This document shows positions 4,338 to 60,808 of a stretch of DNA of 64,000 nucleotides, piece after piece. Location: the NCBI RefSeq assembly GCF_055900595.2, contig NZ_CM148325.1; one strand, 5' to 3'. Positions within the stretch are counted from its first letter, which is position 1. Every line of letters begins with the position of its first letter. Under the pieces are notes generated by a model, which worked only from the letters and a program-made list of their open reading frames with translations, was not told the origin of the DNA and made no database searches. The translations under genes and the position numbers were made by a program.

Positions 4338-4348
4338 TATTTGAAGAA

Positions 4349-4379
4349 GAGCTCGTACGAAAGTACGGGCTTTTTTTTC
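4349..4379 (+). terminator. Intrinsic terminator after serW
   Basis: Stem agctcgtac/gtacgggct with gaaa loop, followed by a run of 8 T. Confidence 0.75.
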
Positions 4380-4388
4380 GCATTTTAT

Positions 4389-4468
4389 CTGCCTGTACGG
4401 CAGTGAACGGTATAAAAATCGAGTTTTCCTTTCGGTTGGCTTTCTAAGCTGCCTGTACGGCAGTGAAC
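4389..4468. repeat. Two direct copies of the 20-bp motif ctgcctgtacggcagtgaac, 60 bp apart
   Basis: Exact 20-mer at 4389-4408 and 4449-4468; each copy has a short internal dyad ctgcc...ggcag. Confidence 0.8.
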
Positions 4469-4617
4469 TCAAATACTACACGTCTAGCCCGTTGTTAATA
4501 AAGCAAAACCATCTCATTTTCCTGCTGCCCCCCCTTTTTTATCCTTACCTTTCAGCTGCACTACTTATCAACAACTTACCATCATCATCAAAAAAAGGGT
4601 CTGAACCTCCTCCACCC

Positions 4618-4660
4618 CATAAATAAAAAGTCCGTAACCTCTTTCGAGATTACGGACTTC
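4618..4660 (-). terminator. Intrinsic terminator of clpA
   Basis: Stem aagtccgtaa/ttacggactt just 3' of the clpA stop; on the minus strand it is followed by ttttattt. Confidence 0.7.
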
Positions 4661-4682
4661 ACCAACCTACCTAACAATTAGA

Positions 4683-37800: not shown

Positions 37801-38913
37801 TTATTTTCCGCTCTTCACTTTGGTCCACGCGCGGGTGCGCACACGGTCGATTTTCGGATCCTGCACTTTCAGAGTGAACAGCTTCGCACGGACATCCGCA
37901 GGCGGGTAAATACCGGGGTTATCACGCACTTCCGCGCTTACCAGCGGCGTAGCTTCTTTGTTCGCGTTGGCATAGAACACATGGTCAGAGATATGCGCTA
38001 CGACATCCGGACGCAGCAGGTAATTCAGGAACTGATAAGCTTCGTCTTTATTTTTGGCATCCGCAGGCATGGCAAATACATCAAAGAATGCCATCGCCCC
38101 TTCTTTCGGAATCGAGAACGAGACATTCACGCCATTCTTTGCTTCCTTCGCGCGGTTTGACGCCTGCCAGACATCGCCCGCCCAGCCAATAGCGACGCAG
38201 ATATCGCCGTTTGCCAGGTCGTTAATGTATTGAGATGAATGGAAATAACGAATGTTCGGGCGCAGCTTTAACAGCAGATCGGTTGCCGGTCCGGTGTAAT
38301 CATCTGCTTTAGTGCTGTTGGGATCTTTACCGAGATAATTCAGCACGGTAGCAAACACTTCTTCCGGTGCATCAAGGAAAGAGACGCCGCAGCTTTTCAG
38401 TTTTTCCAGATTTTCAGGTTTGAGGATCAAGTCCCAGCTATCGACGGGCGCGTTTTCACCCAGTACAGCTTTGACTTTATCGACGTTATAGCCAATCCCG
38501 GTCGTCGCCCACATATAGGGCATAGCAAATTTATTATCCGGGTCATGTTTAGCGACCAGCTTCAGCAGTTCCGGGTCGAGATTCTTCCACTCCGGCAATT
38601 TGTTTTTATCCAGTGGCTGGAAAACTCCCGCTGTCAGCTGGCGTTCAAGAAAGCTTGCTGACGGCACCACCAGGTCAAACCCGGTGCTCCCCGCCATTAA
38701 TTTTCCTTCCAGTACTTCGTTGGAATCGAAAACATCGTAAACGACTTAAATACCGGTTTCTTTTTCAAAATTGGCCACCGTATCCGGGGCGATATAATCA
38801 GACCAGTTATAGATGTGGAGTGTTTTTTGTTCAGCCGCGAGCGTGCCGACAGAGACGGCCATCAGAGCACCCGCAACCAGACCCGATAGCCATTTTTTAT
38901 TTAAGGCGGTCAT
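37801..38913 (-). pseudogene. potF: Putrescine periplasmic binding protein PotF, interrupted by an in-frame TAA at codon 56
   Basis: The two minus-strand ORFs 38746-39063 and 37801-38697 are in the same frame, separated only by the TAA at 38746-38748 (+ strand tta); the translation reads ...[32 protein letters not shown]...; full frame would be 370 aa from [12 protein letters not shown]. Confidence 0.8.
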
Positions 38914-54662: not shown

Positions 54663-55988
54663 ATGAGCAAAGTAACTCCCCAGCCGAAAATCGGCTTTGT
54701 TTCCCTTGGCTGTCCGAAAAACCTTGTCGATTCAGAGCGTATTCTCACCGAACTACGCACCGAAGGTTATGACGTGGTACCGAGCTATGACGATGCGGAC
54801 ATGGTGATCGTCAATACCTGCGGCTTTATTGACAGCGCGGTACAAGAATCACTGGAAGCCATTGGCGAAGCGTTGAATGAAAACGGCAAGGTAATTGTGA
54901 CCGGTTGTCTGGGGGCGAAAGAAGATCAGATCCGCGAAGTCCACCCGAAAGTGCTGGAAATCACCGGGCCTCATAGCTATGAGCAGGTTCTTGAGCACGT
55001 TCATCACTACGTACCAAAACCGAAACACAACCCATTCCTGAGCCTGGTGCCAGAACAAGGTGTGAAACTGACGCCGCGTCATTATGCCTATCTGAAAATT
55101 TCTGAAGGCTGTAACCACCGCTGCACCTTCTGCATTATTCCGTCTATGCGCGGCGATCTGGTGAGCCGTCCGATTGGCGAAGTGTTAAGTGAAGCGAAAC
55201 GACTGGTTGATGCGGGCGTTAAAGAGATTCTGGTGATCTCGCAGGATACTTCCGCCTATGGCGTCGATGTTAAACATCGTACTGGCTTCCACAACGGCGA
55301 GCCGGTAAAAACCAGCATGGTCAGCCTGTGTGAACAGTTATCGAAACTGGGGATCTGGACACGTCTGCACTACGTTTACCCTTATCCACACGTGGACGAC
55401 GTCATCCCACTGATGGCGGAAGGCAAAATCCTGCCGTATCTGGATATCCCGTTGCAACACGCCAGCCCGCGCATTCTCAAACTGATGAAGCGTCCGGGTT
55501 CTGTAGATCGCCAACTGGCGCGCATCAAACAGTGGCGCGAAATCTGCCCGGAACTGACCCTGCGCTCAACCTTTATTGTCGGCTTCCCTGGCGAGACGGA
55601 AGAAGATTTCCAGATGCTACTCGATTTCCTGAAAGAAGCACGTCTGGATCGCGTTGGCTGCTTTAAATACAGCCCGGTTGAAGGCGCAGACGCCAATGCC
55701 CTGCCTGACCAGGTTCCGGAAGAAGTGAAAGAAGAACGCTGGAACCGTTTCATGCAGCTGCAGCAGCAGATTTCCGCCGAGCGCCTGCAAGAGAAAGTGG
55801 GCAGTGAAATTCTGGTGATTATCGACGAAGTGGACGAAGAAGGCGCGATTGGCCGCAGCATGGCAGATGCACCAGAAATCGACGGCGCGGTTTATCTCAA
55901 TGGTGAAACTAACGTTAAGCCGGGTGATATCCTGCGAGTGAAAGTCGAGCACGCCGATGAGTACGATTTGTGGGGTAGCCGGGTTTAA
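54663..55988 (+). CDS. rimO: Ribosomal protein S12 methylthiotransferase RimO (radical SAM)
   Basis: 441-aa ORF; N-terminal Cys triad plus radical-SAM motif CNHRCTFC; C-terminal TRAM domain. Confidence 0.93.
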
Positions 55989-55994
55989 TTAATT

Positions 55995-56024
55995 CAGGCA
56001 GGGCAACATCATTTGCCCTGCCTG
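55995..56024. terminator. Hairpin between convergent rimO and dgcI
   Basis: Stem caggcagggcaa/ttgccctgcctg; no strong U-tract. Confidence 0.5.
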
Positions 56025-56034
56025 CTAATAATGA

Positions 56035-57363
56035 TTACTGCCAGCTAATCTGCGCCCTGCCGTTTTTCTTACTCTTATACAGCCGCTCATCCGCCAGCAT
56101 TTTCAAACGTTCAACGGTGGTACATTCATTTGAATGCGCTACACCGATACTGGTGCTCAAGTTAATACTCCCCACCTGGAAATGGACGATTTCTTTTAGA
56201 ATCGATAGCAACTCCTCCAGCGTTCCGCCAGTATAAATCACCGCAAATTCGTCACCGCCGAAGCGGTAGACTTTACCTTTATCTACCGGGATTTGTGATT
56301 TAAGGATTTTCACCACTTTCATCAACACTTCATCGCCCAGCAAATGACCGAAGGTGTCGTTAATGTTTTTGAATTTATCGACATCAAAAAGACACAGATA
56401 GCCCCCTTTTTCCGGCAGGGCTTTTAAATCTTCATCAAAGGATTTTCTGCCCATTGCTTTGGTCAGGTCGTCCAGAAACGCCGAGTTATACATACTGTAG
56501 AGTTTTTTGACATCGGCAGCCGAAAAGAAAAGCCCACCGTCCAGGACGCGTTCAAAATGGTTATTAATAATGGCTTCTTTCTCCACAATGCCACGATTAA
56601 TCACTCTGCGCACCAGATAAAGGCAGCTAGCACCCGATATCACTGCCACCAATGCAGCAAAGAAAATAATCAACATACATACCTGAAAATAAACGTCTTT
56701 TTTATACGAAAATACGTACAATCCGGTCGGCAAATAGGCGAAGTGCTCCATTGCTTCCGAAACGGTGAAGATGGCGTTTTTAGCATTATATTCATCACCG
56801 GTCACCGGTTTACCGTTCTTAAACAGAGAGAACATCAGGTTCTCGCTATCCATCGCCAGCGATTTTGACAGTAAAGAAAAACGCTCCAGACCAAGCAAAA
56901 ATATCAGACTGCGATTGTGAGTTACCGGATAGAGGTAATAGACGAAGGTTTTACCGTCAAAAGAGATAAACCCTGTATTTTTGACATGTCGATACTTAAC
57001 AACCTGCATAATATCTGCACAATAATTTTTCTCGAACTCCTTTACCTGAATACATTCGTCACTGGAAATCAGATAAGGACCGACATCGTACAAATAAGAG
57101 GGTGAAACCGAGTCGGCGTAAGCTGTGCGCAAGCCAACCAACAGCTGTTCCTCCGTGGGATTTAGCGTGTTGATGAGATCAATTGCCACGCTACGCCGAT
57201 ATTCAGCAATATTTGCCACCGCAAAAGCAGTATCAATAACGGACTGTTTCAGGCCATACACCCGTTCCTTTACCATTTGAGTGTAGATCCCGCAGGCAAC
57301 TGCTGAAATCATGATAAAAATCAGCAGACTGACTGTAAGTACGAACTTATTGATTCTGGACAT
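56035..57363 (-). CDS. dgcI: Diguanylate cyclase DgcI (YliF), membrane-anchored GGDEF protein
   Basis: 442-aa ORF; N-terminal TM/periplasmic region, C-terminal GGDEF (RFGGDEF). Confidence 0.9.
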
Positions 57364-57370
57364 ACGTAAA

Positions 57371-59719
57371 CTACTCTTTTACTAATTTTCCACTTTTATC
57401 CCAGGCGGAGAACGGCATGGGTTTCTGGTACAGATACCCCTGAGCCTGAACACATCCTAATTTGATTAATTCGCGCGCAACGTCTTCGCTCTCTACGCCT
57501 TCCGCAATCACCGGGATCCGGTTATAGCGTGCCAGATCGAAAATAATGCGCACAATTTTCCCCGCAGTACCGAAAATATCGCCGGTAAATTGCGAGTCCA
57601 CTTTTATACTGTCTGGATTAATTTCATAAAAACGTTTCAGGTTTGACAAACCGGTGCCAAAGTCATCAATCGATATCCGTACCCCTTGTTTACGCAGTTG
57701 TTCAATATTGAGATAAAAATGTTCATTAATTCGCTCGATCACAGTTTCAGTGATCTCAACACAGAGGCTGTTCGCCTTCAGGCCATTTTCTTTCATGATG
57801 GTGGTAAAACGCTCATGAAAGTGTGGTTCGTTTAACTGCCAGGGCGAAACATTAATATGCAGTAAGAAACCGTCCTTCAGCGACGCACGCTGACTAAAAT
57901 GTCTAAATTCACCCATTGCCGTTTTAATAATCTGATAACCCAGCGCATTGATAAACCCGATATCTTCAGCAATGGTAATGAACTTCAGCGGTGAAATGAT
58001 CCCCCGCTCCGCAGACACCCAACGGCACAACGCCTCCGCGCCCAGAATGGCGCGGGTGTTAATATCAACGATCGGTTGATAGACCAGGAATAGTTCGCCA
58101 ATTTCCATTGCATGGCGAATATTACGCGCAATCCAAATATTCTCTTCTATTTCGTTGAGCTTCGCGTCATCACAGAAAATAAACTCTGAGAACATATGGT
58201 CACGGATACTGGAAATCGCCAGTTTCAGTTTTTCTGCGTAACTCCAGGCGTTTTCTCCCTGCAAAGGTTCACAAATAGCAGACTTATGGATGCGCAGATT
58301 GCGGTAGCCAAAGCTGCTGTCAAAATCGTTTATCGTCGCTATCTTACGGGTAAACGTCTGGACATTTTCCCGGCACAGGAGTAAATAAAGATCGGCATTG
58401 AATGTCACGATATCGCAGCATTGTGCATATTTCTCGGCAATTCGCTGACACAGTTTTCTGACGATTTTATTACGCTCATCGACACCAAACACCGCTTCAA
58501 CGGCTTCCAGGCCACACAGTTTGATGATCCCCACAGCCAGATACTGATTATTGTTGGACTCAATAATCGCCATATTTTTAATAAAACCGCTTTCTTGATC
58601 GTAAGAGATCAGCGAGAGCAATTTATTCGAACGTTCAATTTCGGCATCTTTCATTTCCGCGATCGAATTTTTGATGCTGATAATCTCTTTCGCATCGCCT
58701 TCGCGAATTTTCAGAGCCTCGATTTGATCCGTTGAGTCGGGCAAAAATGCCAGCGTATTAACCAGCTCGGTCATTTCAGAAAATTGCCGACGGAACACAC
58801 GAGTGGTCATTAAATAAACCACCAGCAATACGATAATAATGAAAGCAAACGGCAGATAAAAAAGTTTATCTGATGCGTTCAATAAATTACCGCCAGGATA
58901 ATAAAAATAGATTTCGAATAATGCGTTGTTTGGCACCGCTGATGTTTTTTCGATATATTCAGTATCGACAGAATCAATAATATTATAATTGCCTTCGCTA
59001 TTATAAATAATCAGTTTTTCACGAGCGAGTTGATTCTTGGCAATGATCTCATGGCCTTATTTCAAAAATAGAACTTCATCATTAGCGCTGATTTGATCAA
59101 GATACTCGTTCAGATATCGCCAGTTTAAATCGACATGAATTTTATCCACCACTAACAAATCGTGATCTTTGCCGTTGATGCGTAGCGTAAAAGAGATACA
59201 TTTTTTACCCGGACGATCAAAGCAATTGTATGCCGGATTCCAGCTGTTGTTAGAGTCATCTGAAGCCACAGACCACGGTCGTTTCGATGGGTTAAAATCG
59301 GCAAAAATAACCCGCCCTGACTCGTCGACAAGCGGTCCATTTACTTGTTCCTGATGATAAACAGCGATTTTATCATTTGCCCTCCGTGAAAAGAGATAAT
59401 ATTTATTATCATCAAGTACCAGTCCCACCGAGTCTAAAAATGGCATCATTTCCATTTTAAGGATCACAGCGCGTTGAATCTCCTCTGTATTTTTTAATAA
59501 ATACAGTGAGTCCTTTAATGTCAGGGCCGAACGTTCAATATCTTTAAAGAAATAGCCAACGTTTTTCTGAATAAGTTCAAAGCGGCTATCGGCACGTTTT
59601 ACCGCGCGTTCCGATACCAGTTGATAGTTAATGATGAAAAAAAGGCCAATAAATGACAGTGCTGCCAATAAAAATAAAATTATCAGCCTTATCTTTATCT
59701 TTTCGTATAAACTCAGCAT
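57371..59719 (-). pseudogene. pdeI: c-di-GMP phosphodiesterase PdeI (YliE), interrupted by an in-frame TAA at codon 221
   Basis: ORFs 59057-59797 and 57371-58936 are in the same frame; my translation of 58937-59056 has no stop, so the only interruption is the TAA at 59057-59059 (+ strand tta), reading ...NDEVLFLK*GHEIIAKNQLAREK...; EAL motif (GAEALCRW) lies downstream of the stop; full frame from MLSLYEKIKIRL would be 782 aa. Confidence 0.8.
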
Positions 59720-59896
59720 GTTAATACATTTAACAAAATAACTGTCTGAACGCTGTGCCGCTGCAAAAACAGTCCCTTGCTGCGGCTTTTTAACCAAATT
59801 ACCCGATTCTACAAAATCAGCAGAAAGTTACAACACTTGCTTAGGGCAATAATTTCCTGTGAGGTGATTACCCTTTCAAGCAATATTCAAACGTAA

Positions 59897-60808
59897 CTAT
59901 CCTTTAATTTTCGGATCCAGCGCATCGCGTAAACCATCACCCAACAAATTGAACGCCAGTACAGTCAGAAAAATAGCCAGGGCCGGAAAAATAGCGACAT
60001 GCGGCGCGATAACCATATCCGCTCGTGCCTCATTGAGCATTGCTCCCCACTCTGGTGTCGGCGGCTGCGCACCGAGGCCGAGAAATGACAGGCTGGCCGC
60101 AGAGATAATCGAGGTACCGATGCGCATGGTGAAAAACACCACGATAGACGAGACGGTCCCAGGCAAGATATGACGCAATAAAATGGTCATATCGCTGGCA
60201 CCAATACTGCGTGCTGACTCAATAAAGGTTTGCCGTTTCAACACCAGCGTGTTGCCGCGCACCAGGCGGGCAAACGCGGGGATGGAAAAAATGGCAACGG
60301 CGATAATCACGTTAGCGATGCCGCTTCCCAACACCGCAACAACAGCGATGGCCAGCAAAATACCCGGGAAGGCAAACAGCACATCGCAAATGCGCATGAT
60401 CAGCCGATCCCACCAGCCTTCATAATATCCCGCCAGCAAGCCCAGCAACGTCCCGATCGCCGCACCGATAAACACGGCAAACACGCCCGCCGCCAGCGAG
60501 ATTTGCGCACCAACCAGGACACGGCTGAAAATGTCGCGTCCCAGTGAATCGACGCCAAACCAGTGCTGCAAAGAAGGTCCGTTATTCAGATTGTCATAAT
60601 CGAAAAAATTTTCGGCGTCATAGGGGGCAATCCAGCGTGCAAAAATGGCCACCACAATCAATAAAATGACGAATAATGCGGCGGCCATCGCCATATGCTG
60701 ATGGCGAAATCGTCGCCAGAATTCATGCCACGGTGTACGTACCTGGTCAGGTTTAACCAATGGCATGGCGTTTAACACCGCCTGACGTCGCCAGTTAAAT
60801 ATTCGCAT
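59897..60808 (-). CDS. gsiD: Glutathione ABC transporter permease GsiD
   Basis: 303-aa membrane ORF; operon order gsiA-B-C-D on the minus strand. Confidence 0.9.

What the first reader, a model, noticed from the sequence alone, without database searches (positions are those of the whole stretch)
59057..59059. In-frame TAA stop at codon 221 of pdeI (yliE), upstream of its EAL domain, with the partner cyclase dgcI intact
The 782-codon pdeI frame is interrupted only by TAA (translation EVLFLK*GHEIIAK), plausibly a CAA-to-TAA change. The truncated product would keep the N-terminal membrane/periplasmic region but lose the EAL phosphodiesterase domain (EALCRW motif downstream). The adjacent diguanylate cyclase dgcI, 7 bp downstream, is full-length, which may tilt local c-di-GMP balance toward synthesis. 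A GTG at 58934-58936 could allow reinitiation of a soluble EAL fragment, but that is speculation. This is the second independent TAA nonsense codon in 64 kb of otherwise intact genes.
Basis: partly seen in the sequence, partly recalled or inferred. Interest (0 to 1): 0.55.

Follow-up and report, generated by a model that had tools for sequence, protein, structure and literature searches.

The report
Inherited nonsense mutation inactivating pdeI
The stop codon is real: a single C-to-T change has knocked out the c-di-GMP signalling gene pdeI in one clone of Escherichia "cryptic clade I". This gene is broken again and again in E. coli, so the finding is ordinary.

Summary
On the minus strand, codon 221 of the 782-codon pdeI (57371-59719) is TAA at 59059-59057, and it is the only interruption of the frame. 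The nearest complete genomes (ST485, Escherichia cryptic clade I; 17 SNPs and no indels over 64 kb) and an outgroup all have CAA (Gln), so the change is a derived C-to-T transition.

It is not a sequencing error. The exact 220-aa truncated product occurs on 217 public contigs, and one ENA contig matches the window base for base over 14.9 kb.

The stop lies in the periplasmic loop, after the CHASE9 domain and before the second membrane helix. It removes that helix, the degenerate GGDEF region and the EAL domain.

Other E. coli lineages carry independent pdeI stops (E205*, Q209*). A 2.8%-divergent chicken isolate has the same Q221*. A 2026 pangenome study lists pdeI among the most often pseudogenised genes.

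The direction of any c-di-GMP shift cannot be inferred, because published evidence on PdeI's net activity conflicts.

Verdict: an ordinary, clone-marking pseudogene of low interest.

The parts
57371..59719 (-). pdeI (yliE) reading frame, now a pseudogene. It has 782 codons, with CHASE9 at residues 35-150, TM helices at about 6-36 and 282-311, and EAL at 532-767.
   Evidence: Translation. Coordinates match the annotated pdeI of NZ_CP098223.1. Pfam hits: CHASE9 3e-62, EAL 1e-68. Hydropathy.
59057..59059 (-). TAA nonsense codon at codon 221 (Q221*), from a C-to-T change at 59059 (read on the minus strand).
   Evidence: CAA in three ST485 genomes and in the outgroup 2013C-4282.
59057..59719 (-). 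The N-terminal ORF that remains translatable: 220 aa, comprising TM1, CHASE9 and part of the periplasmic loop.
   Evidence: The exact product is found on 217 contigs and in 281 index blocks of public assemblies.
57371..58936 (-). Downstream remnant ORF of 521 codons starting at a GTG. It contains TM2, the degenerate GGDEF region and EAL. There is no evidence that it is translated.
   Evidence: ORF list. No SD pairing at the GTG, and only weak candidates at TTG 58882 and ATG 58810. Gene callers annotate it as a separate 521-aa EAL protein on 199 contigs.
56035..57363 (-). dgcI (yliF), intact, 442 aa, with GAPES2 and GGDEF domains. It lies 7 bp downstream of pdeI with no terminator between them.
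   Evidence: Translation with RFGGDEF. Pfam labels on the identical ENA contig. No terminator-like site in the gap. Gly95 is the ancestral state.

Best explanation
This is a genuine, vertically inherited loss-of-function mutation. A single C-to-T transition turned Gln221 (CAA) of pdeI into TAA in the ancestor of a clone related to ST485 within Escherichia cryptic clade I. Translation ends in the periplasmic loop. The cell therefore makes at most a 220-residue membrane-tethered CHASE9 stub and lacks TM2, the degenerate GGDEF region and the EAL catalytic domain, so full-length PdeI signalling is abolished (inferred from the domain map). The event is one of many independent inactivations of pdeI across E. 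coli. That pattern fits a dispensable gene, or one whose loss is mildly advantageous, within a redundant network; published counts give 13 phosphodiesterases and 12 cyclases in K-12. dgcI stays intact, but its expression may fall through Rho polarity or lost translational coupling (inference). The net effect on c-di-GMP cannot be predicted from sequence.
For: - The stop is present and is the only interruption of the frame.
- CAA is the state in three near-identical ST485 genomes and in the clade-I outgroup, so TAA is derived.
- None of the 8 complete genomes that are about 100% identical over 14 kb carries it.
- The exact 220-aa product is on 217 contigs from NCBI, ENA and Logan, and the 521-aa remnant is on 199.
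- ENA contig ERZ25021421 NODE_22 is identical to the window over 14,944 bp.
- Isolates carrying the stop differ from the window at other sites (28780, 32038), so the stop predates their split.
- The domain map places the stop before TM2 and EAL.
- Independent pdeI nonsense alleles were verified elsewhere: Q209* CAA>TAA (L014), E205* GAG>TAG (L016), and the same Q221* in NZ_CP148423.1, which PGAP flags as 'internal stop'.
- pdeI is named among the most frequently pseudogenised metabolic genes in 2,377 E. coli genomes (PMC13322260).
- K-12 yliE deletion mutants grow and form biofilm normally and show no in vivo colonisation effect (PMC3646849).
Against: - No expression or protein data exist for this clone.
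- In Shigella flexneri, nonsense-mutated c-di-GMP genes (dgcE, dgcQ, dgcN) still yield active products (PMC11327459), so a stop codon does not prove a null phenotype.
- The remnant ORF shows no further decay in the window or in the ENA contig. This is uninformative, because the clone is very young.
- Two nonsense changes among the 7 derived coding SNPs on this lineage is somewhat more than expected (P about 0.036). This hints at something beyond pure drift, but it is a post hoc observation.
Confidence: 0.86

Rival explanations
1. The gene is split but still partly functional. Ribosomes initiate at an internal start downstream of the stop and produce a sensor-less C-terminal protein carrying the EAL domain. 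PdeI would then be rewired into a constitutive, signal-blind enzyme rather than lost.
For: A 521-codon ORF remains open. Weak SD-like pairings precede TTG 58882 (codon 280, -6.1 kcal/mol) and ATG 58810 (codon 304, -5.6 kcal/mol); the latter would give a cytoplasmic fragment without TM2. [quoted passage not shown]
Against: The other candidates are weak and were picked post hoc from 17 in-frame start codons. The split is confined to a shallow clone, so there has been no time for selection to show it is maintained. The Shigella precedent used plasmid overexpression.
Confidence: 0.09
2. The loss of PdeI was positively selected. Inactivation gave this clone an advantage and helped it expand, rather than being a neutral hitch-hiker.
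For: The truncated allele is on 217 contigs, against 55 for the intact protein of identical background. pdeI is inactivated repeatedly in unrelated lineages, including the same site twice (PMC13322260). Two of the 7 derived coding SNPs on the lineage are nonsense (P about 0.036).
Against: Contig counts reflect sampling, such as outbreak or surveillance sequencing, not fitness. Recurrent loss is equally expected under relaxed selection on a redundant gene. pdeI has 46 nonsense-creating transitions among 314 possible nonsense changes, so a repeat at one site is not surprising when there are many independent events. K-12 yliE mutants have only mild phenotypes.
Confidence: 0.25
3. The TAA is a sequencing or assembly error, or a change private to one laboratory culture.
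For: No read data are available for the window itself, and none of the 5,426 complete RefSeq E. coli genomes has the stop on this background.
Against: The exact truncated product is recorded on 217 contigs in three independent archives. An ENA assembly is identical over 14.9 kb, including the stop.
Confidence: 0.01
4. The stop is read through, by an ochre suppressor tRNA or by programmed recoding, so full-length PdeI is still made.
For: In Shigella, some nonsense-mutated DGC genes gave a band of full-length size.
Against: The codon is TAA followed by G. From general knowledge of E. coli stop-codon usage and readthrough, not tested here, TAA is the least leaky stop. The only tRNA in the window is tRNA-Ser(GGA). 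No recoding signal was looked for beyond the local sequence, and none is evident. Sister lineages encode plain CAA, so there is no conserved recoding site.
Confidence: 0.02

Closest known systems
PdeI/YliE of E. coli K-12 (CHASE9, degenerate GGDEF, EAL membrane protein) with its neighbour DgcI/YliF
   Same: The locus is the same (gsiD-pdeI-dgcI-rimO), the length is the same at 782 codons, and the CHASE9 and EAL domains are the same. The 401 bp around the site are 99.0% identical to K-12.
   Different: Here the frame is cut at codon 221 of 782, so only the N-terminal 28% can be made.
Other naturally occurring pdeI pseudogenes in E. coli (PGAP 'internal stop' in NZ_CP148423.1; Q209* and E205* alleles; the pangenome survey PMC13322260)
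   Same: The same gene and the same class of lesion, a single-base nonsense change in the periplasmic sensor region. NZ_CP148423.1 has the identical codon change.
   Different: The origin is independent. The chicken isolate's gene differs at 66 of 2,349 nt, including a site 5 nt from the stop. The window allele marks a cryptic clade I clone related to ST485.
Nonsense-mutated c-di-GMP genes of Shigella flexneri (dgcE, dgcQ, dgcN, pdeR) that retain activity
   Same: A premature stop lies upstream of the catalytic domain of a membrane-anchored c-di-GMP enzyme, with in-frame start codons downstream.
   Different: Residual activity was shown there experimentally, on plasmids. Nothing has been shown here, and the internal starts have weak or no SD.

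Membership tests
PdeI/YliE orthologue | N-terminal CHASE9 periplasmic sensor domain | tested here: met
   Pfam PF17153, residues 35-150, E = 3e-62 on the Q221-restored protein.
PdeI/YliE orthologue | C-terminal EAL domain with the EAL motif | tested here: met
   Pfam PF00563, residues 532-767, E = 1e-68. GAEALCRW is present in the frame. It is encoded but lies downstream of the stop.
PdeI/YliE orthologue | Conserved chromosomal position between gsiD and dgcI | tested here: met
   Colinear with the annotated pdeI in NZ_CP098223.1, NZ_CM128600.1, NZ_AP043644.1 and NZ_CP027579.1.
PdeI/YliE orthologue | Uninterrupted 782-codon reading frame (a functional gene) | tested here: not met
   TAA at codon 221.
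Pseudogene by nonsense mutation | A sense codon at the same position in sister and outgroup genomes | tested here: met
   CAA in Z0117EC0005, E400634, AST85 and 2013C-4282. Only 1 of 5,426 complete genomes has T at this site.
Pseudogene by nonsense mutation | The change is heritable and reproducible, not an assembly artefact | tested here: met
   217 contigs carry the exact truncated product, and an ENA contig is identical over 14.9 kb.
Pseudogene by nonsense mutation | Loss of the protein's activity | not testable with these tools
   Inferred from removal of TM2, the degenerate GGDEF region and EAL. It needs protein and phenotype assays.
Functional split gene / internal reinitiation | An SD-led in-frame start shortly after the stop | tested here: not met
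   The first in-frame start (GTG 58936) is 120 nt away with no SD pairing. The best candidates score only -6.1 and -5.6 kcal/mol.
Functional split gene / internal reinitiation | The split state maintained over evolutionary time | tested here: not met
   The stop is confined to a shallow clone. Relatives differing at only 17 of 64,000 positions have the intact gene.

The most novel reading that the evidence does not exclude
The stop does not simply kill PdeI. It uncouples the sensor from the catalytic half. A cytoplasmic or TM2-anchored C-terminal fragment would be translated from an internal start (for example ATG 58810 or TTG 58882) and act as a signal-blind c-di-GMP enzyme, while the orphan CHASE9 stub stays in the membrane. 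Recurrent stops in the periplasmic region in unrelated lineages (E205*, Q209*, Q221* twice) would then reflect selection for this uncoupling rather than for loss. Caveat: the clustering of the stops I saw between codons 196 and 240 is an ascertainment effect, because I queried the protein cluster built around 220-aa fragments.
Probability: 0.07. Interest if true: 0.45.

Novelty: already known. Interest (0 to 1): 0.14.

Why it matters
The finding has little significance beyond strain typing. It gives a clean single-base marker for one clone of cryptic clade I; potF K56* is shared by at least the window and the ENA isolate ERZ25021421. It also adds a further example to the known pattern of E. 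coli lineages pruning their redundant c-di-GMP network. It would matter more if isogenic repair showed a fitness or biofilm effect, or if the C-terminal half proved to be expressed. Either result would bear on the open dispute over whether PdeI lowers or raises c-di-GMP.

Tried and rejected
- **Sequencing error.** Rejected by exact-product look-ups and an identical independent contig.
- **Import by recombination from the other Q221* lineage.** Rejected. The two genes differ at 66 sites, including sites 5 nt downstream and 58 nt upstream of the mutation.
- **Dcm-type deamination hotspot.** The context AAACAAGGC is not CCWGG (read directly from the sequence), so there is no support.
No SD at the GTG, and TM2 is included in the product.
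- **dgcI A95G as a linked derived change.** Rejected. The outgroup shows Gly95 is ancestral, and Ala95 is derived in the ST485 complete genomes.
- **Promoter and terminator scan of 55900-60000.** Counts were no higher than in shuffles, with nothing between pdeI and dgcI.
- **Search for rut-like C-rich, G-poor stretches downstream of the stop.** Only weak ones were found (best 26% C against 14% G), so Rho polarity stays an inference.
- **Povolotsky and Hengge 2016 comparative paper.** It is not held in the library.
- **Frequency of pdeI pseudogenes in the 5,426 complete genomes.** I could not count them, because the hit tables do not show pseudogene flags.

Full report
**Observation.**
- pdeI lies on the minus strand at 57371-59719.
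- Reading that strand, the sequence GAA GTT CTA TTT TTG AAA TAA GGC CAT encodes EVLFLK*GH, with TAA at 59059-59057.
- Translating the whole frame gives 782 positions with a single internal stop at codon 221 and the natural stop at the end. GAEALCRW lies downstream.
- dgcI (56035-57363) begins 7 bp after pdeI, is full length and carries RFGGDEF.

**Where the window comes from.**
- The window is colinear with NZ_CP098223.1 (strain Z0117EC0005). It differs at 17 single bases in 64,000, with no indels.
- The eight nearest complete genomes include six GEMS isolates (100117, 100248, E200086, E400634, E500002, E600003). The five that appear in the published table are typed ST485, OND:H45; four are labelled 'Cryptic I' and 100117 'Cryptic' (PMC13064198). 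100248 is not in that table.
- Slightly more distant hits (2013C-4282, EC42405) are recognised clade I strains (PMC10100065).

**Direction of the change.**
- At codon 221 the reference has CAA (Gln) and the window has TAA.
- Z0117EC0005, E400634, AST85 and the outgroup 2013C-4282 all have C at this position, so the T is derived.
- With the outgroup, 10 of the 17 differences fall on the window's lineage: 3 intergenic, 3 synonymous, 2 missense (artQ V34A, yliI G251V) and 2 nonsense (pdeI Q221*, potF K56* AAA>TAA).
- dgcI Gly95 is the ancestral state, so it is not a linked new change.
- Two nonsense changes among seven coding changes is modestly unusual (P about 0.036, given that 4.5% of possible SNVs are nonsense). 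This test is post hoc.

**Is it real?**
- The exact 220-aa N-terminal product is indexed in 281 blocks of the public assembly collection and on 217 contigs from NCBI, ENA and Logan. The 521-aa downstream ORF is on 199 contigs.
- ENA contig ERZ25021421 NODE_22 is identical to the window over 14,944 bp, including the stop.
- That same contig carries the potF stop. It differs from the window at 28780 and 32038.
- The two stops therefore predate the divergence of sampled members of the clone.
- The intact protein of identical background is on only 55 contigs, although such counts reflect sampling.
- A 55-mer designed so that every 28-base seed spans the mutated base found the T in only 1 of 5,426 complete E. 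coli genomes.

**Same-site recurrence.**
- That one genome, NZ_CP148423.1 (chicken, Korea), has pdeI annotated as a pseudogene with an 'internal stop'. The stop is at the same codon 221, also TAA.
- Its gene differs from the window's at 66 of 2,349 nt, including sites 5 nt downstream and 58 nt upstream of the mutation. The two events are therefore independent.
- This is less striking than it looks. pdeI has 314 possible nonsense SNVs, but only 46 are transitions, and the gene is inactivated often.
- I verified Q209* (CAA>TAA) and E205* (GAG>TAG) in other backgrounds.
- I also saw recurrent contig breaks at codon 239/240 in two backgrounds.
- A 2026 pangenome study names pdeI among the genes with the highest pseudogene frequency (PMC13322260).
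- The concentration of these events near codon 221 is an artefact of querying the cluster of roughly 220-aa fragments.

**What the stop does.**
- Pfam places CHASE9 at residues 35-150 and EAL at 532-767.
- Hydropathy places the membrane helices at about 6-36 and 282-311.
- Codon 221 is therefore inside the periplasmic loop. The product keeps TM1, CHASE9 and about 70 further residues, and loses TM2, the degenerate GGDEF region and EAL.

**Reinitiation.**
- Seventeen in-frame ATG, GTG or TTG codons follow the stop up to codon 560.
It is 120 nt away and has no anti-SD pairing (+0.1 kcal/mol).
- The best candidates are TTG 58882 (-6.1 kcal/mol) and ATG 58810 (-5.6 kcal/mol).
- A product starting at the GTG would include TM2, so it would not be soluble.
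- Shigella flexneri dgcE, dgcQ and dgcN show that c-di-GMP genes with stops can still give active products (PMC11327459).
- I therefore keep this reading at about 9%.

**Effect on c-di-GMP.**
- The direction cannot be read from the sequence.
- Overexpressed PdeI blocks phage N4 as other phosphodiesterases do (PMC7553319).
- It was also reported to raise c-di-GMP about 11-fold, through its divergent GGDEF domain (PMC11651652).
- K-12 yliE mutants grow and form biofilm normally (PMC3646849).
- DgcI is an active cyclase when expressed in Shigella.
- Here dgcI sits 7 bp behind 1,686 nt of now-untranslated RNA, with no terminator or enriched promoter signal between the genes. Its expression may therefore fall. 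Rut-like composition is weak, so this remains an inference.

**Verdict.**
- This is a real, clone-marking nonsense pseudogene in a gene already known to be lost often.
- It is of low interest, and the phenomenon is already known.
- The only reading that would raise the interest is expression of a sensor-less C-terminal fragment. That needs an experiment.

Noticed in passing
window 38746-38748 (-), potF 37801-38913: potF has a derived AAA>TAA stop at codon 56 of 370. It is absent from all 5,426 complete E. coli genomes, but its 298-aa downstream ORF is in 171 index blocks. The same ENA contig carries it together with the pdeI stop. In that isolate (L006) potH is additionally split into 163- and 155-aa ORFs, suggesting continuing decay of potFGHI.
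   Followed up: partly
NZ_CP148423.1 (L004 2368-4716): An unrelated E. coli from chicken carries the identical Q221* CAA>TAA on a background with 66 of 2,349 nt different. This is independent recurrence at the same base. That version of the 220-aa product is on 16 contigs.
   Followed up: yes
L018 and L019 (ends of contigs), pdeI codon 239/240: Many draft assemblies from at least two different sequence backgrounds end at exactly the same point in pdeI (...ATTATTTATAA). The 239-aa partial product is in 79 index blocks. This looks like a recurrent insertion-sequence site that breaks assemblies.
   Followed up: no
window about 4338-4680, between tRNA-Ser(GGA) and clpA: The intergenic length varies even among near-identical ST485 genomes. 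E400634 and AST85 are 60 bp longer than the window and Z0117EC0005. The outgroup gap is 588 bp, and its BLAST alignment breaks here.
   Followed up: no
window 25831-27600 (-), between ybjP and ybjQ: A 1,770-nt gene is annotated as 'hypothetical' or 'pentapeptide repeat-containing protein' in the clade I relatives, and is frameshifted in 2013C-4282. I did not examine it.
   Followed up: no
window 53205 (yliI G251V) and 30571 (artQ V34A): These are the only two derived missense changes on the window's lineage. Both are shared with ENA isolate ERZ25021421.
   Followed up: partly
window 56035-59719: pdeI (41.7% GC) and dgcI (43.6% GC) are clearly more AT-rich than the window as a whole (50.1% GC).
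   Followed up: no
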